Positions 1 to 18,528 of a stretch of DNA of 64,000 bases are shown here, piece after piece. The notes under the pieces are model-generated. The model worked only from the letters and a program-made list of their open reading frames with translations, was not told the DNA's origin and made no database searches. Position numbers and translations under genes: made by a program. The DNA comes from Candidatus Poribacteria bacterium (GTDB lineage: Bacteria > Poribacteria > WGA-4E > WGA-3G). Position 1 is the stretch's first letter. Every line of letters begins with the position of its first letter. Where the stretch lies: assembly GCA_965220065.1 (NCBI GenBank), contig OZ244804.1:1050227-1114226 (forward strand), read 5' to 3'.

Positions 1-1
1 G

Positions 2-574: not shown

Positions 575-585
575 AATCGGATTTT

Positions 586-617
586 GTAAGGGCGGATCTC
601 TGGATTCGTTCTTTACA
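586..617. repeat. REP-like imperfect palindrome / possible terminator after CTD gene
   Basis: GTAAGGGCGGATC-TCTG-GATTCGTTCTTTAC; related GGGCGGA...TCCGCCC hairpin at 1662-1683 follows the next CTD gene. Confidence 0.5.
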
Positions 618-644
618 CCCATTCTTGATTGGGAGATGCTTTTC

Positions 645-1640
645 ATGAACAAGCCAAGGGTTTTCATCTTGGTGACTCTATTGGGCTCCATCTTTTGTCT
701 GATACATGACAGCGAATCTATGCCACAGGAAGGAGCGATACCTGCTATAAAGGTGCTGAAAACGACGGAGAGTTTCACTATTAGAAGTGTTGATCGACTC
801 GGGACTGGACGAAATGAGGTCCCCTGGGTGAAGGTTCTTGAATTCCCAGGCCCAGTGGTGCAGGCGAGAGCTATCTGGCATGAAAGGATTGGAAGGGGGG
901 CTGTAACAGACGTAACCGTGAGGGGCAACAGCGTTACAGTCTCAGGCAAGGTTCAGTATCTGTTAGGCCACACTGCTGTATTAGATGTGAGAGTCGAGGC
1001 AGCTTACCTTTCGATATCACTACCGGGCGCGGGGGATTTGAACCGCGATGGCGCTGTGAACATTCAGGATCTGGTGTTCATTGCCTCTCATTTCGGATGG
1101 ACAGGTAAGCATGTTGCGGATGTAAATAAGGATGGTATTGTCAATATCCAGGACCTTGTTTTAGTTGCTAACGCGCTGAGTGGGGTAGCCTCTGCCCCTA
1201 ACGTTCATGTGCAATCTTTAGGGATGTTGGGTGAGCGAGAGGTGCAGCAGTGGCTTTTACAAGCACAACAGTTAAACCCAATGGATATCAGGTCAAAACT
1301 CGGGATGGCTGTACTTGAACAACTCCTCGCGGTTTTGAGAACTCCGAAAAAGACAGTATTACTCCCCAACTTCCCGAACCCGTTTAACCCAGAAACATGG
1401 ATACCGTATCATCTCGCAGAATCAGCGAACGTGACACTGAGGATCTATTCCGCGGATGGGAAATTGGTTCGGACGCTGGCACTCGGACATCAACCTGCGG
1501 GTATCTATGAGAACAAGAGCCGCGCAGCATACTGGGACGGCAGGAATACTCACAGCGAGCGCGTCGCCAGCGGTCTGTATTTCTACACACTCACCGCTGG
1601 AGATTTCACAGCTACAAGAAAGATGTTGATAATGAAGTAA
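645..1640 (+). CDS. Secreted protein: signal peptide, ~90-aa unassigned beta-rich domain, dockerin pair, C-terminal FlgD-Ig/T9SS-like domain
   Basis: Hydrophobic N-terminus; GDLNRDGAVNIQDLV / ADVNKDGIVNIQDLV; NFPNPFNPETWIPY...RKMLIMK; start could be 636 or 645. Confidence 0.85.
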   Translation: MNKPRVFILVTLLGSIFCLIHDSESMPQEGAIPAIKVLKTTESFTIRSVDRLGTGRNEVPWVKVLEFPGPVVQARAIWHERIGRGAVTDVTVRGNSVTVSGKVQYLLGHTAVLDVRVEAAYLSISLPGAGDLNRDGAVNIQDLVFIASHFGWTGKHVADVNKDGIVNIQDLVLVANALSGVASAPNVHVQSLGMLGEREVQQWLLQAQQLNPMDIRSKLGMAVLEQLLAVLRTPKKTVLLPNFPNPFNPETWIPYHLAESANVTLRIYSADGKLVRTLALGHQPAGIYENKSRAAYWDGRNTHSERVASGLYFYTLTAGDFTATRKMLIMK

Positions 1641-1714
1641 TTTGTTAACCTACCCCAATACGGGCGGATTTCAAGGTCCGCCCATTTTCGTTGAAGATGT
1701 GTAGGAGGAATCCC

Positions 1715-2275
1715 ATGCAATTACAGAAGGTTCAACTTTACATCGCTTTGATGTTCGCGTTGTTCCCTAATTATGTGTTCGCGTCCTTTTCTCTAAAGAA
1801 AACTTATACTTTACGAGAATCCCAAAAGAACGAAAAGTGGCTGTTTGACCGCCGTGTTCTTAAACTTGACGCAGCGGATGCATACTATCTGCACGGCAGC
1901 CCCTGGAAGAAGACCTATACTTTCCGTGGTAGATATGGTGATTGTGAGGCAGATCATTCTGACAATTTCCGCGGTAGATACTTATGGTGTCCGGTAAATC
2001 ATTTCAGGTATACCCGCAACTATACCCAGTGTTTTGTCTGTAATTATAGCTTCAGGGAACATTTTCATTGGACGCAGCAGAAATTTTTTGTAGAGGGAAT
2101 CGGTCAATTTGACAGCAGCAAAAATACCGCGAGACCGTACGTCTCAAAAATCCTCGGAGAAGGTTTGGAACGGATGAGTCGATGGAAGACATCCACCGTG
2201 CGCTTGAACACGGATTTTAATCCTAAAATTAGTGTCCGCTGCCAGCACGGGGCGTGTGTAATTGGTTTTCCATAA
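1715..2275 (+). CDS. Secreted Cys-rich hypothetical protein (copy 1; paralogue at 15472-16032)
   Basis: AGGAGG RBS before ATG 1715; signal peptide ending VFA; six Cys; near-identical second copy. Confidence 0.8.
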   Translation: MQLQKVQLYIALMFALFPNYVFASFSLKKTYTLRESQKNEKWLFDRRVLKLDAADAYYLHGSPWKKTYTFRGRYGDCEADHSDNFRGRYLWCPVNHFRYTRNYTQCFVCNYSFREHFHWTQQKFFVEGIGQFDSSKNTARPYVSKILGEGLERMSRWKTSTVRLNTDFNPKISVRCQHGACVIGFP

Positions 2276-2356
2276 TCTGGGGTGTATAGGAACTCCTTGT
2301 AGCGTCCATTGTGAGTTTGCGCATGGACCGGCATAAAACAGAATCAGGAGAATCTC

Positions 2357-3193
2357 ATGATTTTACAACAAATGAAACCAAGAACAGTGGCGATCCTATG
2401 GTTTTACGGACCTTTTGTTCTACTGTTTGCTATCGTAGGCTTCCTTAACTGCGTAGCGGCAGAAAATGAAACCGAGTGGATGCCGGACGGGCATCTCAGA
2501 GCGGGAGTGCGAGAAGCTCTCAAGCTTGCCCCAGATGCCTCGCTTACACCGCAGGCGTTAGAGGCGTTGACAGAGTTGCAGGCTGCCCGGCAAGGGATCA
2601 CATCTCTCATAGGGTTAGAGTATGCCACGGGATTGGAGGTGTTAAATCTCTCTGAAAATCAAGTCAGTGATATAACACCCCTGGCAAATTTGACGGGATT
2701 GAAGACGTTAGAGATTCACAGTAATAACATAAGGGATCTCACGCCCCTGGTAGACCTAACCGGGTTGAAGGTGCTAAATATCTCCTATAATGAGATAAGG
2801 GATCTCACGCCACTAACAGACCTGACCCGATTGCAGGAATTAGGTCTCGCAGGGAATGCGATAAGTAATCACACGCCCTTATTAAACTTGACGGGACTGA
2901 AGAAACTAAATATCTCCAATAATTCAATAAGTGATCTTACGTTATTGTCGAATCTGACCCAATTGCAGGAATTAGACCTCAGGGGGAATGATGGGATAAG
3001 TAATCTCACGCCACTCGTAAATCTCACCGGATTGAAGCGGTTATATCTCAATAATAATCAGATCAGCGATATCAGTGTTCTCACGCAGTTGACAAACTTG
3101 GAAGCGTTAAAAATCCAGTCAAATCCGATTCAGGATGTAACACCTTTGCGGACACTCCGTAAAAACAATCCGAAAATAACGATAGATGAATAA
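2357..3193 (+). CDS. Secreted internalin-like leucine-rich repeat protein
   Basis: Signal peptide, WMPDxxLR N-cap, 22-aa LxxLxLxxNxIxDLTPL repeats, NPIQDVTPL C-cap. Confidence 0.9.
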   Translation: MILQQMKPRTVAILWFYGPFVLLFAIVGFLNCVAAENETEWMPDGHLRAGVREALKLAPDASLTPQALEALTELQAARQGITSLIGLEYATGLEVLNLSENQVSDITPLANLTGLKTLEIHSNNIRDLTPLVDLTGLKVLNISYNEIRDLTPLTDLTRLQELGLAGNAISNHTPLLNLTGLKKLNISNNSISDLTLLSNLTQLQELDLRGNDGISNLTPLVNLTGLKRLYLNNNQISDISVLTQLTNLEALKIQSNPIQDVTPLRTLRKNNPKITIDE

Positions 3194-3233
3194 CGATAAA
3201 CGAACAGATACTCTCAAACTTGGAAGGAATCCC

Positions 3234-5021
3234 ATGCAATTAATGAAAACGCGTGTAATCAGCCTAATCACCGCGCTGTGCGCCCTATTTTTCATGAGAG
3301 CCGCCCCTGCCGAAGTCGTCTCCATTTGGGATGAAAACCTCCGGGCAGTGATTCTCAAGAAACTCAACAAACCCAACCCCAAAGCCACCATCACGACATC
3401 GGACATGCTGCAACTGACGGAGTTGCGGCTTGAGGATGTCAACTTTTCCACGCTCAAGGGCCTGGAACACGCCACGAATCTGACAACACTTCATCTCAGC
3501 TGGGATGACGCAGTGTCGCCGATGCAACGGTCCGACCACACCTCGGATGTGTCGCCGCTCACAACCTTGACCCAACTGAAAACATTGGTTCTCAACGGTA
3601 GTAACATCAAAGATGTATCGCCGCTGGCAAACTTGACACAACTCACGGAACTGCGTCTGACTTTCAGTAACCTCAGAGATGTATCGCCGCTCGCAAAATT
3701 GAAAAACTTGAGGGTGCTGGACCTTCACAATTACCGCTATGACAATGACCGTAGCGTGGATATGTCGCCACTCGCACACTTGACACAACTCACAGAACTG
3801 AACCTCACCGGTAATGGGATATCAGATGTATCTTGGCTGACCGGCTTGATGAATCTAACAACGTTGAACCTAACTTACAACGCCATTGTAGATGTATCTC
3901 CGCTCACCGGATTGACGAACCTGACAGTGCTGGACCTTAGCAATAACAACATCGTAGATGTGGTGCCACTCACCAGCTTGATGAACCTGCCACAGCTAGA
4001 TTTGAGTAGCAACCGCATCGTAGATGTCTCGCCACTCGCAAAATTGACACAACTGGTGAAACTCGATCTTACGGGCAATCAAATAGATGTATCCTCGCTC
4101 ACCGGCTTCACAAACCTGACAGAGTTGGACCTGAGTGGCAACCGCATCGTAGATGTATCGCCACTCGCACACTTGACTAACCTCACAGAACTGGGGATTT
4201 CCGGCAACAAAATATCAGATGTATCCTCGCTGACCGGCTTGACGAACTTGGAAAGACTGAGCTTAGGTGGCAACTTTCCGCTCTCATTTTGTGCGCCGCT
4301 TGCGCACTTGACGAATTTGACAGAACTGAGCCTTGCGCACACCGTCATCTTTGACCTGTCCGCCGTCGGCAACTTGACGAATCTGGCACGCCTGCGTCTG
4401 AGCAACAGCCGCGTTTCAGATGTATCTTGGATCGCTAATTTAACACACCTCACGATGCTGGACCTTTCTTGGAACGATATCTCAGATATTTCAGGGCTTG
4501 CCAATTGCAGAAACCTGACGGAACTGTCTCTTGACAACAATCCACTCTCGGACCTGACCCCTCTCGCTGAACTCACGCACCTGAAACGGCTGCGGATTGA
4601 CAATCGCCACCACAACAATGCGATCGTAGACATGTCACCCCTTGCAAATCTAATACACCTGGAGGCGTTGTCTCTTGAAAGCAATGCGATCGTAGACGTG
4701 TCGCCACTTGCGAACCTAATACAACTAACAACGTTGTCTCTTGAAAGCAATGCGATTGTAGACGTGTCACCCCTTGCGAACCTAATACATCTGAAAGAGT
4801 TGTCTCTTGAAAGAAATGGGATCGTAGACGTGTCACCCCTTGCGAACCTAACACACCTGAGGTCCTTGAGGGCTGTGTACAACAACATTTCTGATATTTC
4901 ACCACTCACCGCGCTAACACAATTGAGAAGTCTGGGAATTGGGGGAAATCCGCTAAATGCGGATGCTTTCAGCGTACATATCCCGGCAATGAGGGCGAAT
5001 GGTACAAAGTGTTACCCGTAA
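3234..5021 (+). CDS. Secreted internalin-like LRR protein
   Basis: GGAAGGAATCCC-ATG start; signal peptide ...RAAPA; >20 LRR units; NPLNADAF C-cap. Confidence 0.9.
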   Translation: MQLMKTRVISLITALCALFFMRAAPAEVVSIWDENLRAVILKKLNKPNPKATITTSDMLQLTELRLEDVNFSTLKGLEHATNLTTLHLSWDDAVSPMQRSDHTSDVSPLTTLTQLKTLVLNGSNIKDVSPLANLTQLTELRLTFSNLRDVSPLAKLKNLRVLDLHNYRYDNDRSVDMSPLAHLTQLTELNLTGNGISDVSWLTGLMNLTTLNLTYNAIVDVSPLTGLTNLTVLDLSNNNIVDVVPLTSLMNLPQLDLSSNRIVDVSPLAKLTQLVKLDLTGNQIDVSSLTGFTNLTELDLSGNRIVDVSPLAHLTNLTELGISGNKISDVSSLTGLTNLERLSLGGNFPLSFCAPLAHLTNLTELSLAHTVIFDLSAVGNLTNLARLRLSNSRVSDVSWIANLTHLTMLDLSWNDISDISGLANCRNLTELSLDNNPLSDLTPLAELTHLKRLRIDNRHHNNAIVDMSPLANLIHLEALSLESNAIVDVSPLANLIQLTTLSLESNAIVDVSPLANLIHLKELSLERNGIVDVSPLANLTHLRSLRAVYNNISDISPLTALTQLRSLGIGGNPLNADAFSVHIPAMRANGTKCYP

Positions 5022-5092
5022 AGCTACTATCAAAATCCTTACCCTTTCGGCAGAACAGCAGAGCAATGATGTTCAAAGTAGGAGAATGTATT

Positions 5093-6022
5093 ATGAAAAT
5101 CTTTATCAACTTTTCTATATTCATAAGTCTTTGCGGCGTTGTCTTTTTCTTCACCACTCTGGTGAGCTATAGCCAGAAGAATGTAACAGAGAAAGCCTTA
5201 GGTGAGTCTGCTCCCGTCGAAGGTGTAGCTCCCGAAGGCATGGTGCTTATTCCCGCTGGCGAATTTGTGATGGGTAGCAACTACAAGCTGGCAAGCTCAG
5301 GCCCCGTGTTCTATACCGATGATATGTTCTATGCTGAAAAGCCGGTACACACCGTCCACGTTGATGCGTTCTATATGGATAAATACGAGGTGACCAATGT
5401 GCAGTATAAGGCGTTTGTAGATGCCAATCCACAGTGGCGGAAAGATGGGAAGCTGCACGGATCGTTTTACACTAAGTCTTATCTAAACGATTGGAATGAT
5501 AATAATTATCCGGAGGGCGAAGGCGACCATCCGGTGCATTATGTGACTTGGCATGCGGCGATGGCATATGCCGAGTGGACAGGTAAACGTTTGCCGACAG
5601 AGGCAGAGTGGGAGAAGGCCGCACGCGGCGGGTTGTTGGGTAAAATGTATCCGCATGGGGACACCATTGATAAGACCAAAGCGAACTATGACAGTAATGT
5701 TTTCGATACGACTCCCGTCGGGAGTTATCTCCCCAATGGGTATGGTTTATACGATATGGCAGGGAATGTCTGGGAATGGTGCCTTGATGCGTATGATGCA
5801 AGTTTCTATGCGAAGTCTCCGCGTGAGAATCCACTCTCAGGGGCGGACACGATACAGGAGATATTAGATAAATATACGGATGTTAAGGAGGCTCGCGTCA
5901 TACGCGGCGGCGACATGAACAGTAATCCACCTTGGGTGCGGGTCGCCTATCGCGGTCGCATGAGACCAGGGACCATACTCAGCGGCCCCGGTTTTCGGTG
6001 TGTGAAGGATGTAACCCCTTAA
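5093..6022 (+). CDS. Exported FGE-sulfatase (SUMF1 / C-type lectin fold) domain protein; candidate DGR target
   Basis: GGAG RBS; PEGMVLIPAGEF, RLPTEAEWEKAARGG, NGYGLYDMAGNVWEW, RVIRGG...GFRC motifs. Confidence 0.9.
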   Translation: MKIFINFSIFISLCGVVFFFTTLVSYSQKNVTEKALGESAPVEGVAPEGMVLIPAGEFVMGSNYKLASSGPVFYTDDMFYAEKPVHTVHVDAFYMDKYEVTNVQYKAFVDANPQWRKDGKLHGSFYTKSYLNDWNDNNYPEGEGDHPVHYVTWHAAMAYAEWTGKRLPTEAEWEKAARGGLLGKMYPHGDTIDKTKANYDSNVFDTTPVGSYLPNGYGLYDMAGNVWEWCLDAYDASFYAKSPRENPLSGADTIQEILDKYTDVKEARVIRGGDMNSNPPWVRVAYRGRMRPGTILSGPGFRCVKDVTP

Positions 6023-6049
6023 ATTTTTTTACCTTATAAGGAAAATCCC

Positions 6050-7744
6050 ATGATTTTACAGCAAGTGAAACGAAAAACAGTGGCAACCCTACAGTTTTAC
6101 GGACATTTTGTGGTGCTATTTGCTGTCGTAGGCCTACTTAACGCCGCGGCGGCAGAAAATGAAACCCAGTGGATGCCCGACGAGCATCTCAGGGCGGCAG
6201 TGCGAGAAACCCTCAGTATTGCACCAGACACCTCGCTCACGCCGCAGGCGTTAGAAGAGTTGACGGAGTTGCATATCGAGGATGTCAACTTTTCCACGCT
6301 CAAGGGTCTCGAACACGCCACAAATCTGACAATACTTCATCTCAGCTGGGATACCGCGGTGCATCCCAGAAACAGGTACAACTACGCCTCGGATGTCTCA
6401 CCGCTCACAAACTTGACACAACTGAAAATACTGGTTCTGCATCACAGTAGAATTAAAGATGTGTCCCCTCTCGCAAAATTGACGCAACTCACGGAACTGC
6501 ATCTTACTCCCGATAGTAACATCGTAGATGTATCGCCGCTCGCAAAATTGAAAAACTTGACTGTCCTGAACCTTAACTGGAACCAAATAAGAGATGTGTC
6601 CCCTCTCGCAAAATTGACGCAACTCATCGAACTGAATCTTGCCGGCAATCAGATATCAGATGTATCCTCGCTCACCGACTTGACGAATCTAACAGCGTTG
6701 AACCTAACTAACAATCGCATCGGAGATGTGTCCCCTCTCGCAAAATTGACAAATCTGCTAAGGCTGGACCTTACCAATAACCAAATAGGAGATGTGTCCC
6801 CTCTCGCAAAATTGACACAACTCATAGGGATGAACCTGAGTGGCAACCGCATCGGAGATGTATCCTCGCTCGCCGGCTTGACAAACCTGACTGAGCTGGA
6901 CTTGAGTGGCAATGACATCGTAGATGTGGCACCCCTCACAAAATTGAAAAACCTCCTGGAACTGCGTCTTGCTGGCAATGAAATATCTGATATATCCTCG
7001 CTCACCGGCTTGACGAATTTGACAGAACTCCACCTTGGAGGTAACGTCATCTTTGATCTGCCTGCCATCGGCGACTTGAGGAATCTGGTACATCTGCGTC
7101 TGAACAACAGCCGCATTTCAGATGTCTCTTGGATCGCCAGTCTAACACAACTGACAATACTGGACCTCTCCTCTAACAAGATCTCATATCTTTCACCACA
7201 ACTTGCCAATTGCAAAAACTTGACAGCATTGGATATTTCCTACAATCCACTTTCGGATCTGACATCTCTTGCTGAACTCACGCAACTGAAACGGCTACGG
7301 ATTGTAAACCCCTCCAACGACAATGTGATCGTAGATGTATCACCCCTTGCAAACCTAACACAACTGACAGAGTTGTTTCTTGAGGACAATGCGATCGTGG
7401 ACGTGTCGCCTCTTGCCAACCTAACACAATTGAAGAAGTTGTCCCTTGACAGAAACGCGATTGTAGATGTGTCGCCCTTGGGGAATCTCATACACCTGAA
7501 AGAGTTGTCTCTTGTAAGCAACGCGATCGTGGACGTGTCGCCTCTTGCCAACCTAACACAACTGACACTTTTGAGTGTTGAGGAAAACAGCATTTTTACT
7601 GTTTTACCGCTCACCGTACTAATACCAGCACAACTGAGAGGGCTGTCGATTCAAGGCAATCCGCTAAATGCTGATGCTTTCGTACATATCTCTGCAATGA
7701 AGGAGAAAGGGATATCGGTCCGTTCTGACTACAGAAAAGATTAA
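6050..7744 (+). CDS. Secreted LRR protein, chimera of the 2357-type N-terminus and 3234-type body
   Basis: LRR repeats; 5' ~210 nt match gene 2357, remainder matches gene 3234. Confidence 0.9.
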   Translation: MILQQVKRKTVATLQFYGHFVVLFAVVGLLNAAAAENETQWMPDEHLRAAVRETLSIAPDTSLTPQALEELTELHIEDVNFSTLKGLEHATNLTILHLSWDTAVHPRNRYNYASDVSPLTNLTQLKILVLHHSRIKDVSPLAKLTQLTELHLTPDSNIVDVSPLAKLKNLTVLNLNWNQIRDVSPLAKLTQLIELNLAGNQISDVSSLTDLTNLTALNLTNNRIGDVSPLAKLTNLLRLDLTNNQIGDVSPLAKLTQLIGMNLSGNRIGDVSSLAGLTNLTELDLSGNDIVDVAPLTKLKNLLELRLAGNEISDISSLTGLTNLTELHLGGNVIFDLPAIGDLRNLVHLRLNNSRISDVSWIASLTQLTILDLSSNKISYLSPQLANCKNLTALDISYNPLSDLTSLAELTQLKRLRIVNPSNDNVIVDVSPLANLTQLTELFLEDNAIVDVSPLANLTQLKKLSLDRNAIVDVSPLGNLIHLKELSLVSNAIVDVSPLANLTQLTLLSVEENSIFTVLPLTVLIPAQLRGLSIQGNPLNADAFVHISAMKEKGISVRSDYRKD

Positions 7745-8016
7745 AAGTTTGGACAATTGTCTCCAAACTGTAAGCAAGTTTAAGTATTAACATTCAAGGG
7801 CAGCTTTATTCCCTATGGCCGCCCAACAGGTTCAATAATTCCGTTAGGACACCTTTCAATCCACAAACATCTACAATCACAGAAATCACAGTTCAGACAA
7901 TGAGCTGTAGCATAGACTGTGAGTCTGTGCATAAGGGTACGCAACCGAACAGGATACGCTACAAAACCGTGCGGGTATCAGCGCTTTTCAATGAAAAAGG
8001 GAGCTGAGTTAAACCT

Positions 8017-8062
8017 GCCCTATCTCGTGCAGTGAATATGGCGTATGCCCTATTTCGTGCAG
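8017..8062 (+). promoter_or_regulatory. Tandem putative enhancer-binding-protein sites (UAS)
   Basis: GCCCTATCTCGTGCAG (8017) and GCCCTATTTCGTGCAG (8047), 30-bp period, upstream of a sigma-54 motif. Confidence 0.65.
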
Positions 8063-8122
8063 CTTTTTTCCGCATTCCACAGGAAATTCCACCGATTTCC
8101 ATTCGTATGCTATTGTCCAGAG

Positions 8123-8138
8123 TGGCACGGAATTTGCG
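8123..8138 (+). promoter_or_regulatory. Sigma-54 (-24/-12) promoter
   Basis: TGGCAC-GGAAT-TTGC matches TGGCAC-N5-TTGC with exact spacing. Confidence 0.75.
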
Positions 8139-8263
8139 CATTGCTACGGTAACATGCGTTCGGTTTTAGTACTTAAAAAGAACTCGCGTTTTTTGGTCTT
8201 GAAGATGTTATTCATATAAGTACCTCCAAAATCTACCATAAATAACCCGACAGGAGCATTTAT

Positions 8264-10345: not shown

Positions 10346-10437
10346 ATCTTTACCTCAACTTTAGAACATCTTCACAGCGGATGCAGCCGAAATTAGGAAG
10401 AATACCACGGTTATAGGCAGCTTAGGTTATTAAAAAC

Positions 10438-10483
10438 GCCCGATTTCGTGCAGTCGCGTCTAAAAAATGCCCAATTTTGTGCG
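10438..10483 (+). promoter_or_regulatory. Tandem putative enhancer-binding-protein sites (UAS)
   Basis: GCCCGATTTCGTGCAG (10438) and GCCCAATTTTGTGCG (10469), 31-bp period; same motif as 8017-8062. Confidence 0.65.
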
Positions 10484-10535
10484 ATGCGTTCTCTAAGTTT
10501 TGTAGAAAACGCCGTCAGTATAGGAGTGTTCAAAT

Positions 10536-10551
10536 TGGCACCGAACTTGCT
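10536..10551 (+). promoter_or_regulatory. Sigma-54 (-24/-12) promoter
   Basis: TGGCAC-CGAAC-TTGCT, exact consensus spacing, 54 nt before ATG 10606. Confidence 0.8.
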
Positions 10552-10605
10552 AAATCCAAATAGCGTGAGTTCAATATCAAACAGAAACACATAAGGAGCG
10601 TTCCC

Positions 10606-13530
10606 ATGAAAAAGCGTTTCGCGATCTTCTCAATAGTGCTCACCGGCTTACTTACGATTTCTCTCAACAGCTGCGAGAAGCGAGTGACACACCAAGAAAC
10701 AGTAGAAAATGAAACCGAGTGGATGCCCGACGAGCATCTCAGGGCGGCAGTGCGAAACGCCCTCGAACTCGATCCGGATGCCTCGCTCACGCCACAGGCG
10801 TTAGAGAAGTTGACGGAATTGTATGCTCCCCGGCGAGGGATAAGCTCCCTGAAAGGATTAGCGTATGCAACGAAATTGGAGGTGTTGGATCTCAGCACTA
10901 ATGTGATAAGTGATCTCACACCCTTGGCAAACTTAACGGAATTACAGAGGTTAGATCTCAGCGGTAATGATATAAGTGATCTCACACCCTTGGCAAACTT
11001 GACGGGATTACAAGAGTTAGATCTCATGATGAATCCAATTCAGGATGTAACGGTCCTGTACACGCTCCGTCATCCAAATTTAATCCTACATAGCCCGATT
11101 CTGCTACCTGAGCCAGGGTTAATGCCGGACGGTTTTTTAGCACAGAATGTGCGAAATGCTCTCGGTTTGGCTCCGGGGAGCCCCTTCACGTCGGAGGCAC
11201 TGCAAGGATTAACGAAGTTGTATATTTCTCCGGGTGTAACGGACCTCACAGGGTTGGAACACGCGACACGATTGCAGGCGTTATCTCTTGTTAGTAGTGA
11301 GATAAAGGATTTCACGCCGCTGGAAAGTTTGGCGGGATTGCAGGCGTTATCTCTTGGTGGTGAGATAAAGGATCTCACGCCGCTGGCGATTTTGACGGGA
11401 TTGCGGGAATTAGCTGTCCGGAGTAATGAGATAAGTGATTTCACGCCGCTGGCACACTTGACGAAATTACAGAAATTGAATCTCAACAGAAGTCAGTTTG
11501 TAGATATAACGCCGTTGGCACGTTTAACGGAATTGCAGGTGTTAATCCTCACTTCTAATGGGATGAAGGATATCACACCCTTGGCAAACTTGACGAAATT
11601 GCAGAAGTTAGATATCCGCTATAATGAGATCAATGACATCACACCGCTGGTGAACTTGACGGAATTGCAGGAGTTAAGTCTCGGCCGGAATCGGATCGAT
11701 GACATCACGGCGTTAGCAAACTTGACGAAATTGCGGGAGTTGAGTCTTCAGGAAAGTTCGGTGGTAAATATAACGCCCTTGGCAAACTTGACGGAATTGC
11801 AGGAATTATTTCTCCGCTATAGCGAGATCGATGACATCACGGCGTTAGCAAACTTGACGAAATTGCAGAGGTTGGGTCTTGAGGACAATCAGATTATAGA
11901 TATAACGCCACTGTCTAACTTGACAGAATTACAGTATCTAGATCTTGCGGATAATGAAATCGATGACATCACGGCGTTAGCAAACTTGATGGAATTACAG
12001 AAGTTAGAACTTGCGGATAATGAAATCGATGACATCACGATGTTAGCAAACTTGACGAAATTGCGGGAGTTAAATATCCGCTCTAATCGGATCGATGACA
12101 TCACGGCGTTAGCAAACTTGACGGGATTACAGAAGTTAAGCCCCCAAGGCAATCAGATTGTGGATATAACGCCACTCGCAAACTTGAGGGAGTTGCAGGA
12201 ATTAGAACTTTGGCGAAATCAGATACATGACATCACGCCACTATCAAATTTGAGGGGGTTGCAGAAGTTGGATCTGCAGGACAATCGGGTTGTAGATATA
12301 ACGCCACTATCAAACTTGACGAGATTGCGGGTGTTATCTCTCCACAACAATGAGATAAAGGATCTCACACCGCTATCAGACTTGAGAGGATTGCAAAGGT
12401 TATTTCTCGGTGGTAATGAGATACATGATCTCACACCCCTGTCTGACTTGACGGGATTGCAGAGGCTATCTCTCGGTGGTAATGAGATAAAGGATCTCAC
12501 ACCCCTATCAGATTTGAGGAGACTGCAGGAGTTGAGACTCCACGGCAATCAGGTTGTAGATATAACGCCATTGGCAAAATTGATGGAATTGCAGGAGTTA
12601 GAGCTGTGGGGCAATCAGATAAGCGATAGCAGTGTTCTTGCACAGCTGAAAAACTTGGAGGTGCTGCGTATCCAAGCGAATCCTATCCAAGATATAATAC
12701 CCCTCCGGACACTCCTTGAAAGCGATCCGAAAATGACGATAGATGTTGGATTCATAGGTGCGTCTCCGTGTCCACTAATGTATTGGATAGATACACGCAA
12801 TGGCACGCTTCATTGCCGCATCGGTGACACCGTAGTGAACCCCTTTCCAAACACCCAAAACGCAACAAACCTTGCCCTAAATGGTTTTGACTACTATTGG
12901 ACTGAAAAAACGGACGATCACACATGGAGGATCCGATACTCACATGGACGGGTCGGACATTATTGGGGAGTTCGTGGGGTGGAATTAACGGACACACCCA
13001 TGGGAATGGCGATCGCTGATCGTAAAGTTTATGTGTCAGTGGCATCGGGGAAGATTCAGCGGTTCGGTATTTACGGTTCTGACTTCGAACCCGATTTCAT
13101 CACGGGGTTGGCTTCACCGAAGCATCTGGTGGCGGATACAGGCAGAGAGAAACTCTATTGGACGGAGGAAACGACGGATGGCATATGGCAGATCCGATGT
13201 GCGGCACTTGACGGGTCAAACGTTCAATCGGTCAGGGCGTTAGAGAGTGCGCCGCTCGGACTTGCGATTGACGTTGTCGCAGGTCAGCTCTACGTATCAG
13301 TGGCTGCGGGTAAGATTCAGCAGCTCCGGGTTGATGGTTCCGACTTTCAACCCGATTTCATTACCGGCTTGGCTGCGCCGGGGAGCATTGATGTGGATGT
13401 CGGAGATGGTAAGTTATATTGGACAGACGGGGATAGCATCTGGCGTGCGTCCCTCACGGGTGAGCACATTGAGCGTGTCCTCACAGGCTTAGGCATGCCT
13501 ATCCACTTAGTTCTGAACGTATCACCCTAA
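10606..13530 (+). CDS. LRR lipoprotein with C-terminal LDL-receptor class B (YWTD-like) beta-propeller
   Basis: Lipobox-like LNSC; two N-caps; ~25 LRRs; MYWID, YYWTE, LYWTE, LYWTD repeats. Confidence 0.88.
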   Translation: MKKRFAIFSIVLTGLLTISLNSCEKRVTHQETVENETEWMPDEHLRAAVRNALELDPDASLTPQALEKLTELYAPRRGISSLKGLAYATKLEVLDLSTNVISDLTPLANLTELQRLDLSGNDISDLTPLANLTGLQELDLMMNPIQDVTVLYTLRHPNLILHSPILLPEPGLMPDGFLAQNVRNALGLAPGSPFTSEALQGLTKLYISPGVTDLTGLEHATRLQALSLVSSEIKDFTPLESLAGLQALSLGGEIKDLTPLAILTGLRELAVRSNEISDFTPLAHLTKLQKLNLNRSQFVDITPLARLTELQVLILTSNGMKDITPLANLTKLQKLDIRYNEINDITPLVNLTELQELSLGRNRIDDITALANLTKLRELSLQESSVVNITPLANLTELQELFLRYSEIDDITALANLTKLQRLGLEDNQIIDITPLSNLTELQYLDLADNEIDDITALANLMELQKLELADNEIDDITMLANLTKLRELNIRSNRIDDITALANLTGLQKLSPQGNQIVDITPLANLRELQELELWRNQIHDITPLSNLRGLQKLDLQDNRVVDITPLSNLTRLRVLSLHNNEIKDLTPLSDLRGLQRLFLGGNEIHDLTPLSDLTGLQRLSLGGNEIKDLTPLSDLRRLQELRLHGNQVVDITPLAKLMELQELELWGNQISDSSVLAQLKNLEVLRIQANPIQDIIPLRTLLESDPKMTIDVGFIGASPCPLMYWIDTRNGTLHCRIGDTVVNPFPNTQNATNLALNGFDYYWTEKTDDHTWRIRYSHGRVGHYWGVRGVELTDTPMGMAIADRKVYVSVASGKIQRFGIYGSDFEPDFITGLASPKHLVADTGREKLYWTEETTDGIWQIRCAALDGSNVQSVRALESAPLGLAIDVVAGQLYVSVAAGKIQQLRVDGSDFQPDFITGLAAPGSIDVDVGDGKLYWTDGDSIWRASLTGEHIERVLTGLGMPIHLVLNVSP

Positions 13531-13563
13531 GCAGACATTGCACCGGTAAACGACGGGTGTTTA

Positions 13564-13794
13564 TCAAACTTCCGAAAGCAGCCGAAGGTATTGCTCTCTG
13601 CTCATGCCAACAGTTCGCATATTATTTCTGATAACGGTAATCGGGATCTCATCATAACGCGGAATGACGACAGCGCGTTTGGCATCAGGATGGTGATAGA
13701 TAAGATGTGACCCTTTTTGCCTCACATAAAGACACCCAAATTTTTCAAAAATCCTAACTTGGGTGCGCCAGTCTGTCGGCGACAGTTTCGACAT
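13564..13794 (-). CDS. hicA: HicA-family mRNA interferase toxin
   Basis: 76 aa, RQKGSH motif, VVIPRY..I....IRN. Confidence 0.85.
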   Translation of the reverse strand: MSKLSPTDWRTQVRIFEKFGCLYVRQKGSHLIYHHPDAKRAVVIPRYDEIPITVIRNNMRTVGMSREQYLRLLSEV

Positions 13795-14078
13795 TAAAAC
13801 GCTCCGAGAGGGACGGTCCGCTGATTAAAGGCAACTACGTGTTTATCAAGTTGAAGCGTGGATTCTGACGTATTCAAATCGTAACCTGCATCTTCTAAAA
13901 ATGCCTTGAGTGTCCCGAGCGTCGCGGCTTCTTCCAGATGTATTTCGATGACTTCAAGGAGGTTTTTTCGTGCGTCTTCAATGTCCGTTCCGCAGCTCAC
14001 AACATCCAGTTCTGGACAGTAAGCGGTGTACATGTTACCCTCTTTCCAGATTTCTTCCGTTACCACAAGGTTCTTCAT
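13794..14078 (-). CDS. hicB: Short HicB-family antitoxin (no obvious DNA-binding domain)
   Basis: YTAYCPELDVVSCGTDIEDARKNLLEVIE; 1-nt overlap with hicA. Confidence 0.85.
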   Translation of the reverse strand: MKNLVVTEEIWKEGNMYTAYCPELDVVSCGTDIEDARKNLLEVIEIHLEEAATLGTLKAFLEDAGYDLNTSESTLQLDKHVVAFNQRTVPLGAF

Positions 14079-14209
14079 CCTAACCTCCAGATATAAGTTG
14101 GAATTGTTCAGAATATTAATAGAGTATACACGAAAAATTTTGAAAAAGCAAAAGATATTTGAGGAATTCTATTGATGCAAAGCAGGCAATTCAGAGAAAG
14201 GAGAACAAA

Positions 14210-14605
14210 ATGACACGAAAAACGCTTGTAATCAGCCTAATCCCTGCACTGTGCGCCCTATTTTTCATGAGAGCTGCCCCCGCCGAGGTCGTCTACATCC
14301 CGGATGCAGACCTCCGGGCAGCGATTCTCAAGAAACTCAATAAACCCAACCCCAAAGCCGCCATCACGAAAGCGGATATGCTACAACTGACGGAGTTACG
14401 GCTCAAGGATGTCAACTTTTCCACGCTCATGGGCCTGGAACACGCCACAAATCTGACAACACTTTATCTCAGCTGGGATGACGCAGTGTCTCCCATGGAA
14501 CGGTTCAACTACACCTCGGATGTGGCACCACTCACAAACTTGACACACAGGCGAAACACCACTATCAGGCAGTCAATAAAATGGGGCGTGAAGTCACTGA
14601 CTTAG
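14210..14605 (+). pseudogene. Truncated LRR gene (3234-type N-terminus) joined out of frame to a TPR gene
   Basis: Highly similar to gene 3234 up to ~14547, then similarity ends abruptly. Confidence 0.7.
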
Positions 14606-15453
14606 ATCCGGAGAATGCTTCGGGGTGGAGAACCCGCGGGGTCGCGACGTTGAGGCTTGGTGTATCGGCGGCTCACAAGGGCAATCAGGAACAGGCACAA
14701 CGCCACTATAACGACAGTCTTGAAGCCTATAGTCAAGCCATTGCTTTAGACGCAGAAAATCCCGCCGCCTACGCCTCGCGTGCAGACGTGCATATCTACG
14801 CCGGCATTTTGGAAATGACCAGAGCCAATTTCGAGCAGGCACACCACCACTATCAGGCAGCGATTCAGGATTCGAGTCAAGCCACGCGCATGGCACCAAC
14901 GATGGAGTATGCCCTCTTCTTTTCCCTTGGACTCAACGCGGCGTATATCAAGTTGGGGGACGCTGAAGTTGCCTTGGGAAATATTCAAGAGGCCCAAAGC
15001 CATTACCAGTTAGCTATTGAGAGCCTTGGGGCAATCACGTTCCTCGGTCAAGGGGCTATTGCAGGTGATGCTGCGTATGAGCATCTCGCCGCAGGGAAAC
15101 TCAAACTCGGTGAATCTCATGCACGCTTGGGAAATGTTCAGCAAGCCGAACAGCACTATCGTGAGGCACTCGAGGATTGTCGGCAAACGATTGCTTTATT
15201 TCCGAAGCAGGCGAAGGCTTTCTACATACAAGGTCGCGTAAAAGCGGCACTTTCGGACTACACGGGTGCTATTGCGGACTTCGAGCGTGTGATTGCCATC
15301 AAGCCTGACTATGCGCTTGCGTATTATGCCCAAGGGCTCGCAAAACAGGCATTAGGGCAAGACGATGCCGCAGAATTCGACTTTGCGAAAGCACGCGTGC
15401 TCAACCCGGATATCGATAAGTTATACCCTTTCAGTCACGGCGGAGAAGAATGA
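14548..15453 (+). CDS. TPR repeat protein, probably 5'-truncated (first ATG 14581)
   Basis: Repeated A..HY..A / AYY..G.A...LG....A..DF..A..L.P units; TPR frame continues upstream of the ATG as QAKHHYQAVNK. Confidence 0.75.
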   Translation, partial: QAKHHYQAVNKMGREVTDLDPENASGWRTRGVATLRLGVSAAHKGNQEQAQRHYNDSLEAYSQAIALDAENPAAYASRADVHIYAGILEMTRANFEQAHHHYQAAIQDSSQATRMAPTMEYALFFSLGLNAAYIKLGDAEVALGNIQEAQSHYQLAIESLGAITFLGQGAIAGDAAYEHLAAGKLKLGESHARLGNVQQAEQHYREALEDCRQTIALFPKQAKAFYIQGRVKAALSDYTGAIADFERVIAIKPDYALAYYAQGLAKQALGQDDAAEFDFAKARVLNPDIDKLYPFSHGGEE

Positions 15454-15471
15454 GATTGAAGGAGGAATCCC

Positions 15472-16032
15472 ATGCAACTAAAAAAGACCCAACTTTATAT
15501 CGTTCTGATGTTCGCGGTGGTCCCTAATTATGTGTTCGCGTCCTTCTCCCTAAAGAAAACCTATACCTTACGAGAATCCCAAAAGGACGTAAAGTGGCTG
15601 TTTGACCGCCGTGTTTTTAAACTTGACGCAGCGGAGGTATACTCTCTGCACGGCAACCCCTGGAAGAAGACCTATACTTTCCGTGGTAGATATAGTGATT
15701 GTGAGGCAGATCATTCTGACAATTTCCGCGGTAGATACTTATGGTGTCCGGTAAATCATTTCAAGTATACCCGCAACTACACTCAGTGTTTTGTTTGTAA
15801 TTATAGCTTCAGGGAACATTTTCATTGGACGCAGAAGAAATTTTTTGTAGAAGGGATCGGTCAATTTGACAGCAGCAAAAATGCCGCGAGACCGTACGTC
15901 TCAAAAATCCTCGGAGAAGGCTTAGAACGGATGGGTCGATGGAAGACATCCACCGTGCGCTTGCACACGGATTTTAATCCTAACTTTCGGGTCCAGTGTT
16001 ATCACAGCGGGTGTGTAATAGGTTTTCCATAA
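15472..16032 (+). CDS. Secreted Cys-rich hypothetical protein (copy 2)
   Basis: GGAGGAATCCC-ATG; near-identical to 1715-2275. Confidence 0.8.
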   Translation: MQLKKTQLYIVLMFAVVPNYVFASFSLKKTYTLRESQKDVKWLFDRRVFKLDAAEVYSLHGNPWKKTYTFRGRYSDCEADHSDNFRGRYLWCPVNHFKYTRNYTQCFVCNYSFREHFHWTQKKFFVEGIGQFDSSKNAARPYVSKILGEGLERMGRWKTSTVRLHTDFNPNFRVQCYHSGCVIGFP

Positions 16033-16153
16033 TCTGCGGCGTCGAGGAAACCCCTTGTAGCGTCCACTCTTCAGATGTCAACCCTCAACACTGCTATTCG
16101 GCGCGCATTTCAACCTTGTCTAAGTTCTGAAGAAATACATCAGGAGTATTTGT

Positions 16154-17032
16154 ATGAAAAAATGTTTAGTGTTCTTCTCAATAGTGATCATCGGTTTGCT
16201 GGTTTCCCTATCTCTCAGCGGCTACCACAGACCAGCAACAAACGGCGACAATTTACGGACATCCCCCGAAGGCATGGTACTGATTCCTGCCGGCGAGTTC
16301 TTGATGGGGAGCAACGATGCAGAGTCGAACAACAATGAACAGCCCGTGCGCACCGTTTACATTGATGCCTTCTATATGGATAAAACTGAAGTCACCAACG
16401 CACAATATAAGGCGTTCCTCATTGAGAACCCGCGCTGGCAGAAAGAACGCGTTCGTTCAACATTCGTCCATCCCAACTATCTGCAACATTGGAATGGGAA
16501 CAACTATCCGAGTGGGAAGGGCGACCATCCGGTGCATTATGTGAATTGGTATGCGGCGAGGGCGTATGCCAAATGGGCAGGGAAACGTTTACCAACCGAG
16601 GCACAATGGGAATACGCTGCCCGCGGGGGTTTAGCCGGTAAGAAGTACCCGAACGGGAATATGATCACAGCACAGGATGCAAACTACGATAGGAATATTA
16701 ACCATACAACGGCAGTGGGGCGATATCCATCGAACGGGTATGGTTTATACGATATGGCGGGTAACGTCTGGGAATGGTGTCTGGATGAATACGACGAGGA
16801 TTTCTACGATACCTTCCCGCGAAATGGGGTTGTTCGCAACCCGCTATCGCGTGCGAGCAGTCTGACGCGGTTAATAAGAAAAGTGGGTAATATTGAGGTT
16901 CCCCGCGTCTTGCGCGGCGGGTCCTGGCGCCCTGCAGCAGGAGGCGTGCGCGTCGCACTGCGCGTCGACGCCATGCCTTCGCACTGGGCCACCACCTTCG
17001 GTTTTCGGTGTGTGAAGGATGTAACCCCTTGA
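16154..17032 (+). CDS. Exported FGE-sulfatase/CLec domain protein; candidate DGR target
   Basis: PEGMVLIPAGEFLMGS, RLPTEAQWEYAARGG, RVLRGGSW...GFRCVKDVTP. Confidence 0.9.
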   Translation: MKKCLVFFSIVIIGLLVSLSLSGYHRPATNGDNLRTSPEGMVLIPAGEFLMGSNDAESNNNEQPVRTVYIDAFYMDKTEVTNAQYKAFLIENPRWQKERVRSTFVHPNYLQHWNGNNYPSGKGDHPVHYVNWYAARAYAKWAGKRLPTEAQWEYAARGGLAGKKYPNGNMITAQDANYDRNINHTTAVGRYPSNGYGLYDMAGNVWEWCLDEYDEDFYDTFPRNGVVRNPLSRASSLTRLIRKVGNIEVPRVLRGGSWRPAAGGVRVALRVDAMPSHWATTFGFRCVKDVTP

Positions 17033-17044
17033 GTCTTTGCGGCT

Positions 17045-17749: not shown

Positions 17750-17801
17750 CGGTGTTCCTCCTTTTCCGTGGGACGCATAAAAAACACTGGATACTACTGA
17801 T

Positions 17802-18452: not shown

Positions 18453-18528
18453 GTCTGTTTTTGTCCTCTGCCGCCTTTATGACTCATCGTCGAGTTAGCG
18501 CATTTCAGACGCATGTCTATAGTAAATC

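What the first reader, a model, noticed from the sequence alone, without database searches (positions are those of the whole stretch)
1700..17032. Combinatorially shuffled array of exported binding proteins
Seen: genes are mosaics of a few nucleotide-level modules. Gene 6050 matches gene 2357 up to TGACGGAGTTGC (6261-6272; same 12-mer at 3415-3426) and gene 3234 afterwards. Gene 10606 shares its RBS/leader with FGE gene 16154, then switches at AGAAAATGAAACC (10704; cf. 2461, 6154) to the 2357/6050 cap, and extends the 2357-type C-cap into a YWTD propeller. Gene 14210 repeats the 3234 N-terminus. Unrelated genes 1715, 3234 and 15472 all start with GGAATCCCATGCAA (6050: AAATCCCATG). FGE domains appear behind three different N-termini. 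Inference: a locus that builds a repertoire of surface receptors or effectors by recombining leader, cap, repeat and lectin modules, plausibly for host or phage interaction.
Basis: partly seen in the sequence, partly recalled or inferred. Interest (0 to 1): 0.75.

Follow-up and report, generated by a model that had tools for sequence, protein, structure and literature searches.

The report
Mosaic surface-protein gene island in Poribacteria
A sponge-symbiont-type bacterium carries a strain-specific island of exported binding-protein genes that were patched together from each other by old duplications, crossovers, fusions and deletions, which is the ordinary way such surface-protein families evolve and not a dedicated shuffling machine.

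Summary
Gene 6050 is a real chimera: 2357-type head, 3234-type body, with the switch at 6273/6276 (0 of 2000 permutations as strong). Gene 10606 carries an FGE-gene-type lipoprotein leader on a 2357-type cap (switch at 10699/10700), and its tail folds as a YWTD propeller. 14210 is the stump of an LRR-TPR gene with an out-of-frame internal deletion.

The array lies in a ~31.9 kb island. In 4 of 4 complete same-genus genomes examined, the two flanking genes are adjacent and the island is missing.

Other Poribacteria hold the same module families in other orders and fusions.

The events are old. Shared segments are 66-91% identical, with dS 0.2-1.3, about the distance to the nearest sampled species or more. 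I found no reverse transcriptase, tRNA or flanking repeats. There were no recombinase or transposase hits among the larger ORFs scanned, and only one weak inverted repeat. Two independent studies hold 95-98% of the sampled words.

This is a new member of a known kind; the closest analogue is the Listeria internalin clusters. This scan reported a similar mosaic LRR pair in another genome (e1-2221195).

The parts
1..17801 (+). Right-hand 17.8 kb of a ~31.9 kb island (it begins about 14.1 kb before the window start) lying between two convergent core genes: a PMT_2 glycosyltransferase on the left and adenylate kinase at 17802-18452(-).
   Evidence: in G023, G013, G024 and G017 the DNA just beyond ADK matches window -14092 and below. 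The G023 empty site is a ~56-nt spacer. There is no flanking direct repeat of 10 nt or more and no tRNA.
2..1640 (+). Two genes (2-574, open at the 5' end, and 636-1640) with a dockerin and a FlgD_ig/Por_Secre_tail-like C-terminal domain. A strong terminator-like hairpin follows at 1662-1683.
   Evidence: The tail domain has 42 loci in the genome.
1715..2275 (+). Cys-rich orphan secreted protein, copy 1 (186 aa, six conserved Cys).
   Evidence: No Pfam hit. Only 15 relatives among 5.8 billion clusters. 91% nt identical to 15453-16066.
2357..3193 (+). Short internalin-like LRR protein: leader A, cap A, 22-residue LRRs, then a C-cap that ends ...KITIDE.
   Evidence: LRR_4 E=5.7e-34. Best PDB matches are Listeria internalins.
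3234..5021 (+). Long LRR protein: leader B, cap B, about 20 LRRs.
   Evidence: Tandem 66-nt units, for example 4616-4860 at 86%.
5093..6022 (+). FGE-fold protein with its own leader. The ORF is open from GTG 5009; ATG 5093 (MKIF...) is the likely start.
   Evidence: FGE-sulfatase E=2e-60. The start is inferred from the G066 paralogue, which begins MKIF.
6050..7744 (+). Chimeric LRR gene: leader A and cap A joined to a B-type LRR body.
6260..6272 (+). Crossover motif TTGACGGAGTTGC (codes L-T-E-L), a variant of the LRR consensus word.
   Evidence: 18 matches with up to 2 mismatches in the window against 1.75 expected; 17 of the 18 lie in the LRR genes of this locus. Breakpoint at 6273/6276.
8264..10345 (+). 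Metzincin-like (HELGHAFGLGD) domain, then ankyrin repeats, then an FGE-fold domain.
   Evidence: Peptidase_M10 only E=0.0015, below its cut-off. 16 loci of the N-domain in the genome, most at 69-92 kb.
10606..13530 (+). Lipoprotein-type leader C (..LNSC), cap A, a 3-LRR mini-domain with C-cap, a second cap, about 22 LRRs, a 2357-type C-cap, then a six-bladed YWTD propeller (12703-13527).
   Evidence: The leader/cap switch is at 10699/10700.
13564..14078 (-). hicB-like (13794-14078) and hicA (13564-13794) toxin-antitoxin pair inside the array.
   Evidence: HicA_toxin E=5.3e-14. HicB_lk/UPF0150 hits are only weak. 78-87% nt copies stand at other places in many relatives.
14210..15453 (+). Remnant of an LRR-TPR fusion gene. 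A leader B/cap B stump (14210-14605) and a TPR piece (ORF 14581-15453) lie in different frames. The junction is near 14547/14548.
   Evidence: Intact 780-aa LRR-TPR genes exist in G004 and G066. G000 aligns to residues 1-107 and 410-780 of the G004 protein, in two frames.
15472..16032 (+). Cys-rich orphan protein, copy 2.
   Evidence: dS 0.20 against copy 1.
16154..17032 (+). FGE-fold protein with leader C. The lipobox Cys is replaced by Tyr (..LSLSGY), and the two catalytic Cys of true FGE are absent.
   Evidence: Relatives carry ..LSGC or ..LNSC at this point.
17045..17749 (-). Uma2-family (putative endonuclease) gene at the right edge of the island.
   Evidence: Four further copies in the genome.

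Best explanation
The region is the right half of a ~32 kb flexible genomic island in a Poribacteria genome. It encodes a multigene family of exported 'eukaryote-like' binding proteins: internalin-type LRR proteins, an LRR-YWTD-propeller lipoprotein, FGE-fold proteins without catalytic cysteines, a metzincin-like/ankyrin/FGE protein, a TPR remnant, and a lineage-restricted Cys-rich protein.

The mosaic pattern is the historical record of ordinary processes. These are tandem duplication, unequal or non-allelic homologous crossover at the conserved LRR word (L-T-E-L, TTGACGGAGTTGC), leader replacement at the signal-peptide/mature-protein boundary, gene fusion, and out-of-frame deletion. Divergence followed under relaxed, surface-focused selection.

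Shown: the chimeric junctions, their age, the absence of the island from close relatives, and alternative architectures in other species.

Inferred: export and lipid anchoring (read from the leaders by eye), binding of sponge-host or matrix ligands, and crossover as the event that made each junction.
For: - Breakpoints: 6050 at 6273/6276 (88:14 then 22:155) and 10606 at 10699/10700 (50:16 then 32:130), each reached by 0 of 2000 permutations.
- The junction word belongs to the LRR consensus: 18 matches against 1.75 expected.
- Age: paralogous segments have dS 0.20-0.76 and the FGE domains 1.0-1.3. Two core genes differ from the nearest species G023 by dS 0.14-0.34, and from eight other species by 0.30-1.38.
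- Selection: dN/dS is 0.26-0.64 for the array segments and 0.08 for the CTD tails; the two core genes work out at roughly 0.02-0.13 from the dN and dS. Between 3234 and 6050, dN/dS is 0.83 at the variable LRR positions and 0.15 at scaffold positions.
- Island: ADK lies next to the PMT_2 gene in 4 of 4 complete same-genus genomes fetched. G004 has a different island at the same site, with AAA_35, LRR-TPR, CTD genes and an FGE fragment.
- Other architectures: G018 has leader C + cap A on an LRR-YWTD protein and a 663-aa LRR-FGE fusion. G021 and G066 have leader A on the LRR-YWTD protein. G004 and G066 have a 780-aa LRR-TPR protein. G011 has the order Cys-rich, LRR, FGE. G066 holds the same families in another order.
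- The 6050-type chimera was not found in 64 other species genomes of the genus. The best match was 62% over residues 1-135, no better than paralogue 2357.
- Leaders A, B and C and the Cys-rich gene occur only in this locus of G000.
- Real DNA: runs from two studies hold 0.98 and 0.95 of the sampled words. Zero-difference contigs cover 2134-5332, 8259-9810, 10726-11718 and 12094-13174, and one with 2 differences covers 13471-15475.
- Family identity: Pfam, internalins as best PDB matches, YWTD fold, FGE alignment lacking the Cys pair.
- A same-genus record is titled Candidatus Poribacteria.
Against: - No contig piece bridging the 6273 junction was among the pieces printed (2774 pieces were not shown). 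Direct read support for that one junction therefore rests on the word share and the even depth.
- One search lists short joints at about half depth in both X1 and X2 (1701>3233 and 3258>14207, sides of 26 letters). It also lists two in-frame LRR-length variants in X2 (4225>4308, 4599>4748). These could be co-existing structural variants, that is, some ongoing change. The tool warns that such short-sided joints at under 95% likeness often come from repeats or other organisms.
- The 18-nt identity around the start codons of the unrelated genes 1715 and 3234 is not explained by simple descent. In G011 and G066 the LRR-B gene has another SD spacer.
- Export and ligand binding are not tested, and no RNA run was listed.
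- The variable and scaffold position classes were defined from the same repeats, so that contrast is partly circular.
Confidence: 0.82

Rival explanations
1. A dedicated, currently active diversification system (cassette gene conversion as in pilE/pilS or vlsE, LRR-cassette assembly as in lamprey VLR, a shufflon, or a diversity-generating retroelement acting on the FGE-fold genes) reshuffles the modules within populations.
For: - Breakpoints fall at functional module borders.
- FGE/C-type-lectin folds are known DGR targets; a Treponema variable protein appears among the PDB hits (2y3c).
- The last ~40 nt of the three FGE genes are 90-92% identical, against about 70% for the rest of the domains.
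- Half-depth short joints and LRR-length variants appear in public runs.
Against: - No RVT_1 match in the 96%-complete single-contig genome, while the control search rang in 3 of 14 genomes.
- No template-repeat-like extra copy of any FGE 3' end.
- Only one inverted repeat in 1-17800, 35 nt at 74%.
- No recombinase or transposase among the Pfam hits of the 17+6 ORFs scanned.
- Maximal module identity is 91% and the longest exact repeat is 69 nt.
- There are no silent cassettes: each full copy has an SD, a start and a leader, and dN/dS is below 1.
- Two studies hold 95-98% of the same words.
Confidence: 0.05
2. The mosaics arose elsewhere. The island was imported en bloc, or piecemeal, by horizontal transfer from another Poribacteria lineage into a recombination hotspot, so the G000 locus is a recipient and not the place where the shuffling happened.
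For: - The island is absent in the four closest complete genomes examined.
- The closest copies of several genes are in less related species: G018 at 74-76% nt for 10606, and G066 at 88% for the Cys-rich gene.
- A hicAB pair that sits at different places in many genomes lies inside it.
- AAA_35 ATPase genes flank such arrays in G000, G004 and G011.
- G+C is the same as the genome, 47-49% against 48%, as expected for a donor from the same phylum.
Against: - No integrase, tRNA or flanking direct repeats.
- The parents of chimera 6050 (2357-type and 3234-type) lie next to it, and the chimera was not found in 64 other species. That argues at least this event was local.
- G004 has a partly homologous island at the same site, which fits old residence with losses as well as it fits import.
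Confidence: 0.12
3. The chimeric genes are assembly artefacts: repeats collapsed or mis-joined in a metagenome-assembled genome.
For: The region is rich in 66-nt repeats and paralogues. The genome is a MAG-like single contig.
Against: - A mis-join would leave each side about 100% identical to its source. Here the sides are 83% and 71-81% identical to their 'parents'.
- The reading frames stay open across the junctions.
- The leader C/cap A junction is also present in G018.
- Runs of two studies hold 0.98 and 0.95 of the words, with even depth across 5887-6540.
Confidence: 0.01

Closest known systems
Listeria internalin multigene clusters (inlG / inlC2 / inlD / inlE; inlH)
   Same: - Exported proteins with an N-cap and 22-residue LRRs; internalins A, C2, B and H are the best PDB sequence matches of gene 2357.
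- Genes sit in tandem clusters.
[quoted passage not shown]
- Gene content differs between strains.
   Different: - No LRR_adjacent (inter-repeat Ig) or Internalin_N Pfam hit at E<=0.001, and no LPXTG/GW anchor module seen.
- Anchoring, if any, is by a lipoprotein leader.
- Partner domains here are a YWTD propeller, TPR and an FGE fold.
- The organism is an uncultivated Poribacteria, not a Firmicute pathogen.
Eukaryote-like repeat proteins of Poribacteria and other sponge symbionts (Kamke et al. 2014, PMC3909097)
   Same: That paper reports two-copy LRR (pfam12799), TPR, ANK and LDL-receptor repeats on poribacterial genomes. They often carry signal peptides or TM helices and Por-type C-terminal domains, and a role in host interaction is proposed (passages read).
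   Different: 'Recombination' and 'sulfatase' each occur 0 times in that text. The island context, the chimeric junctions, the leader swap and the LRR-FGE and LRR-TPR fusions are not described there. Its supplementary tables are PDFs that I did not open.
Programmed LRR or cassette diversification (lamprey VLR assembly; Neisseria pilE/pilS; Borrelia vlsE; DGR targets such as Treponema TvpA). The systems other than TvpA are named from memory.
   Same: Combinatorial use of leader, cap, LRR and C-cap modules. An FGE/C-type-lectin fold is present; TvpA (2y3c) is a PDB hit of 16154.
   Different: There are no silent donor cassettes, no near-identical tracts and no reverse transcriptase, and no recombinase was found among the ORFs scanned. 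The arrangement is stable in two independent data sets.
Flexible genomic islands / hypervariable regions between conserved core genes in marine bacteria (concept recalled, not checked in a paper here)
   Same: Same chromosomal site, different cargo of surface-related genes in different species (G000 against G004), and empty in others. No integrase or att repeats.
   Different: The cargo here is eukaryote-like binding proteins, not glycosylation or O-antigen genes.

Membership tests
Internalin-type LRR proteins | Tandem 22-residue LRRs (LxxLxLxxNxIxDIxxLxxLxx) | tested here: met
   66-nt period. Consensus LTELDLSGNEIVDVTPLANLTN from 53 repeats. LRR_4 E from 5.7e-34 to 9.7e-97.
Internalin-type LRR proteins | N-terminal cap homologous to the internalin cap | tested here: inconclusive
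   PDB alignments to InlC2 (query 43-249) and InlH (61-257) reach into the cap region. No Internalin_N Pfam hit at E<=0.001.
Internalin-type LRR proteins | Inter-repeat Ig-like domain and an LPXTG/GW/WxL wall anchor | tested here: not met
   No such Pfam family among the hits of the four LRR proteins at E<=0.001. 2357 ends straight after the C-cap.
Formylglycine-generating enzyme (FGE/SUMF1) | FGE-sulfatase fold (PF03781) | tested here: met
   E=2e-60, 3e-57 and 3.5e-62 for the three genes.
Formylglycine-generating enzyme (FGE/SUMF1) | Catalytic cysteine pair (..GGSYLCHDSYCNRYR.. in Streptomyces FGE 6muj/2q17) | tested here: not met
   16154 aligns GGSWR---PAAGGVRVALR at this point. 5093 and 8264 read by eye also have no Cys between RGG and GFRC. 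They are FGE-fold proteins, not FGE enzymes.
YWTD (LDL-receptor class B) beta-propeller | Six-bladed propeller fold with YWTD-type repeats | tested here: met
   AF2 pLDDT 85.4, pTM 0.84. Foldseek best hits are megalin, LRP4, ApoER2, LRP6 and nidogen, TMq 0.70-0.79. Ldl_recept_b scores 21.4 bits against a cut-off of 21. YWTE/YWTD occurs three times.
Diversity-generating retroelement target | Reverse transcriptase and a template repeat matching the 3' variable region | tested here: not met
   0 RVT_1 matches in the genome, with a positive control in 3 of 14 genomes. The 3' ends match only each other.
Cassette-based programmed recombination (antigenic-variation type) | Silent partial cassettes with near-identical tracts to an expression site | tested here: not met
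   Best module identity is 91% and the longest exact match 69 nt. The only partial copy (14210) is a deletion remnant of an LRR-TPR gene.
Classical integrative genomic island | Absent from close relatives at the same site | tested here: met
   4 of 4 complete same-genus genomes have the two flanking genes adjacent.
Classical integrative genomic island | Integrase, tRNA target, flanking direct repeats, deviant composition | tested here: not met
   No integrase among the Pfam hits. No tRNA in G000:C1:1030227-1070026. No shared word of 10 nt or more at the borders. G+C 47-49% against 48% for the genome.
HicAB toxin-antitoxin | HicA toxin domain with an adjacent HicB-like antitoxin | tested here: met
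   HicA_toxin 52.5 bits (cut-off 27). The adjacent ORF has only weak UPF0150/HicB_lk hits, E=0.0013 and 0.01.

The most novel reading that the evidence does not exclude
The recurring trio of orphan Cys-rich secreted protein, internalin-like LRR protein and cysteine-less FGE-fold lipoprotein is a functional host-recognition cassette special to this Poribacteria genus. It sits in hotspots marked by AAA_35 ATPase genes and is still being re-dealt within sponge populations, as hinted by the half-depth joints and in-frame LRR-length variants in public runs. Leader swaps toggle its members between secreted and lipid-anchored states.
Probability: 0.1. Interest if true: 0.6.

Novelty: new member of a known kind. 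Interest (0 to 1): 0.3.

Why it matters
It gives a clean, base-resolved example of how the eukaryote-like protein repertoires of sponge symbionts diversify. Crossovers happen at the conserved LRR word, signal or lipoprotein leaders are exchanged, LRRs are fused to YWTD, TPR or FGE-fold domains, and genes decay, all inside a strain-specific island between two core genes. For people studying sponge-microbe recognition, it nominates concrete candidate ligand-binding proteins and an orphan Cys-rich partner. It does not reveal a new mechanism.

Tried and rejected
- **DGR:** no RVT_1 in the genome and no template-like copy of the FGE 3' ends.
- **Invertible or shufflon-type DNA:** one weak inverted repeat only.
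- **RNA elements:** no Rfam family at gathering score in 1-20000.
- **Promoter and terminator scans:** not above shuffles, 18 against 22.8 and 18 against 15.9, so operon structure is left open.
- **Cys-rich protein:** no Pfam hit. The AF2 model from 15 sequences had pLDDT 34.7, which is not usable, so no fold search was made.
- **Extra breakpoint inside cap A:** rejected. The three caps are equidistant at 99-102 of 120 nt. In the same script the 6275 offset was one base out of register, so its two 'post-junction' figures for 6050 are void.
- **14210 as a 3234/6050 mosaic:** max chi-square 11.6, reached in 42 of 2000 permutations, so not pursued.
- **Metagenome scan with 6050:** 4 loci, best 42% identity, no close strain to compare.
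- **Expression:** no RNA holder was listed among the sequencing runs.
- **Reads:** runs X3 and X4 hold only 0.38 and 0.14 of the words at low depth, and parts without cover there are not interpreted.
- **AAA_35 ATPase as an array marker:** of 5 genome copies, 2 lie within 20 kb of 8 and 21 family genes, 2 near one FGE gene, and 1 near none. About 5% of random sites have 5 or more. Suggestive only.
- **Literature:** three full-text searches found no paper describing mosaic or recombinant LRR arrays in Poribacteria. These were Poribacteria + leucine-rich repeat + eukaryotic-like; Poribacteria + LRR + repeat proteins + single-cell genomics; and sponge symbiont + eukaryotic-like proteins + gene duplication + recombination + leucine-rich repeat. 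I saw listings only, apart from PMC3909097, where I read passages.

Full report
**What is there.** Between 1700 and 17032 all large genes lie on the + strand. Pfam gives the following:
- Four LRR proteins: 2357-3193, 3234-5021, 6050-7744 and 10606-13530, with LRR_4 E from 5.7e-34 to 9.7e-97.
- Three FGE-sulfatase-domain proteins: 5009/5093-6022, 8264-10345 (which also has ankyrin repeats) and 16154-17032.
- A TPR protein at 14581-15453.
- Three ORFs without any family: 1715-2275, 14159/14210-14605 and 15472-16032.

The LRRs are 22 residues long (66-nt period). Their best solved relatives are the Listeria internalins A, C2, B and H.

The FGE domains align to true formylglycine-generating enzymes but lack the catalytic cysteine pair. 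They are FGE-fold proteins, not FGE enzymes; PorK/GldK and a Treponema variable protein are also among the hits.

The last 275 residues of 10606 fold confidently (pLDDT 85.4). They match LDL-receptor-family YWTD propellers (TMq 0.70-0.79).

In gene 6050, informative sites favour 2357 by 88:14 up to 6273 and favour 3234 by 155:22 from 6276. In gene 10606, they favour FGE gene 16154 by 50:16 up to 10699 and favour 2357 by 130:32 afterwards. Neither split was reached in 2000 permutations.

The 6050 crossover lies in TTGACGGAGTTGC (L-T-E-L). This word belongs to the most conserved nucleotide motif of the LRR units: 18 matches with up to 2 mismatches in the window against 1.75 expected, and 17 of them lie in these LRR genes. 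That makes non-allelic homologous crossover at a shared word the simplest origin.

The 10606 switch falls at the border between leader and mature protein. By eye, leader C ends in a lipobox-like LNSC and leader A in an AxA-type site. The swap would therefore change a secreted protein into a lipoprotein; this is inference.

The 14-mer GGAATCCCATGCAA is exact at three starts and nowhere else in the genome. But two of the three starts are duplicates of each other, and the word includes the Shine-Dalgarno end and the ATG. The extra identity between 1715 and 3234 (18 nt) remains a small unexplained point, because the LRR-B genes of G011 and G066 have other spacers.

- 14210 is not a free-standing module. 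G004 and G066 carry intact 780-residue LRR-TPR proteins. G000 aligns to residues 1-107 and 410-780 of the G004 protein in two different frames. So 14210-15453 is that gene after an out-of-frame internal deletion of roughly 0.9 kb. Contigs of public runs cover this junction (13471-15475, 2 differences).
- 10606 has two LRR domains: a mini-domain (cap, 3 LRRs, C-cap) in front of the main one.
- A hicA/hicB-like pair sits at 13564-14078(-).

**Context.** The window is part of a 5.54 Mb single contig. A same-genus genome is titled Candidatus Poribacteria, which agrees with earlier notes of this scan.

In four of four complete same-genus genomes fetched (G023, G013, G024, G017), adenylate kinase (window 17802-18452) lies directly beside a PMT_2 glycosyltransferase. 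In G000 that gene ends about 14.1 kb before the window. The empty site in G023 is a ~56-nt spacer. G000 therefore has a ~31.9 kb island between two convergent core genes.

The left half of the island holds an AAA_35 ATPase and Ig-like/C39-like proteins with Por-type tails. G004 has another, partly related island at the same site. I found no integrase, tRNA, flanking repeat or compositional deviation.

**Relatives re-deal the same modules.**
- G011 has the order Cys-rich gene, LRR(B), FGE(C).
- G018 has leader C + cap A on an LRR-YWTD protein, so that junction predates the split of these species. It also has a 663-residue LRR-FGE fusion.
- G021 and G066 have leader A on the LRR-YWTD protein.
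- G066 has an array in the order FGE, LRR-YWTD, Cys-rich, LRR-TPR, LRR(B), FGE(C), LRR(A), FGE, Cys-rich.
- The 6050-type chimera was not found in 64 other species genomes of the genus. The best match was 62%, no better than paralogue 2357.
- Within G000, the leaders, caps A and B and the Cys-rich gene occur only here. The broader families are large: 22 LRR, 20 FGE, 16 metzincin-like and 42 Por-tail loci.

**Age and selection.** Synonymous divergence between shared modules is as follows:

| Module pair | dS |
|---|---|
| Cys-rich duplicates | 0.20 |
| 3234 / 14210 | 0.28 |
| 6050 / 10606 cap | 0.30 |
| 2357 / 6050 head | 0.39 |
| 3234 / 6050 body | 0.51 |
| 2357 / 10606 cap | 0.76 |
| FGE domains | 1.0-1.3 |

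Two flanking core genes differ from the nearest sampled species by dS 0.14-0.34, and from eight others by 0.30-1.38. The exchanges are therefore as old as, or older than, species splits in the genus.

No tract is near-identical; the longest exact match is 69 nt. dN/dS is 0.26-0.64 in the array segments; for the core genes it works out at roughly 0.02-0.13 from the figures. Between 3234 and 6050 it is 0.83 at the variable LRR positions and 0.15 at scaffold positions (the position classes come from the same repeats).

**Mechanism tests.** There is no reverse transcriptase in the genome and no template repeat for the FGE 3' ends. Only one weak inverted repeat was found.

Public runs from two studies hold 0.98 and 0.95 of the sampled words of 1700-11600. 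Their contigs match 1-2 kb stretches with zero differences.

Against a fully static picture, one search lists short half-depth joints (1701>3233, 3258>14207) and two in-frame LRR-length variants in X2. The tool itself warns about such short-sided joints, and I treat them as leads. No printed piece bridges 6273.

**Verdict.** The sequence observation is confirmed and the evolutionary module shuffling is real. It is the ordinary birth-and-death and recombination dynamics of a surface LRR family, best paralleled by the Listeria internalin clusters, where inlH is a 5' inlC2 / 3' inlD recombinant (PMC3977354, passages). LRR, TPR, ANK and LDL-receptor repeat proteins are already known as a hallmark of Poribacteria (PMC3909097, passages). 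The island context, the junctions and the leader swap are new details, so this is a new member of a known kind.

Noticed in passing
window 13564-14078 (-): A hicA toxin gene (HicA_toxin 52.5 bits) with a hicB-like gene upstream. The 0.5 kb stretch is 78-87% identical to single copies at unrelated places in many same-genus genomes and even other-family genomes, so it looks like a mobile TA module.
   Followed up: partly
G000:C1:1036263-1037867 (about 14 kb before the window start); also L022:93-1685 and L017:477-1835: A ~530-aa AAA_35/AAA_16 ATPase with a weak NERD-like C-terminus sits at the left edge of the island. It has 4 more full copies in the genome, one inside the metzincin-like array at 69-92 kb. 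55-67% identical copies lie beside the arrays of G004 and G011. It may be a marker or agent of variable regions.
   Followed up: partly
window 1715-2275 and 15472-16032: An orphan secreted protein with six conserved Cys and a CFVCNY...HFHW motif. It has only 15 relatives in 5.8 billion protein clusters, all at 54% identity or more, and it lies next to LRR/FGE genes in G000, G011 and G066. AF2 gave no usable model.
   Followed up: partly
window 8264-9133; G000:C1:69000-92000: The N-terminal domain of 8264 carries HELGHAFGLGD (metzincin-like; Peptidase_M10 only E=0.0015). It has about 16 paralogues, most in one array interleaved with ankyrin repeats near 69-92 kb of the genome.
   Followed up: no
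window 5989-6020, 10537-10577 and 16999-17030: The three FGE-fold genes end in the same peptide, GFRCVKDVTP. Two of them share an exact 32-mer, and all three are 90-92% identical over about 40 nt, far more conserved than the rest of the domains (about 70%). The reason is unknown.
   Followed up: partly
window 16154-16230: The leader of 16154 reads ..LSLSGY where relatives have ..LSGC or ..LNSC. The lipobox cysteine appears lost (TGC to TAC type change), so this copy may no longer be lipid-anchored.
   Followed up: no
L023:3191-3506 (G066): In G066 the LRR-YWTD gene seems broken between its leader A/cap and the rest. The search reports one TAG inside, and the long ORF starts only at 3488.
   Followed up: no
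window 17104-17156: A 21-nt tandem repeat (2.5 copies, 93% matches) with terminator-like hairpins lies just after FGE gene 16154, overlapping the 3' end of the Uma2 gene on the other strand.
   Followed up: no
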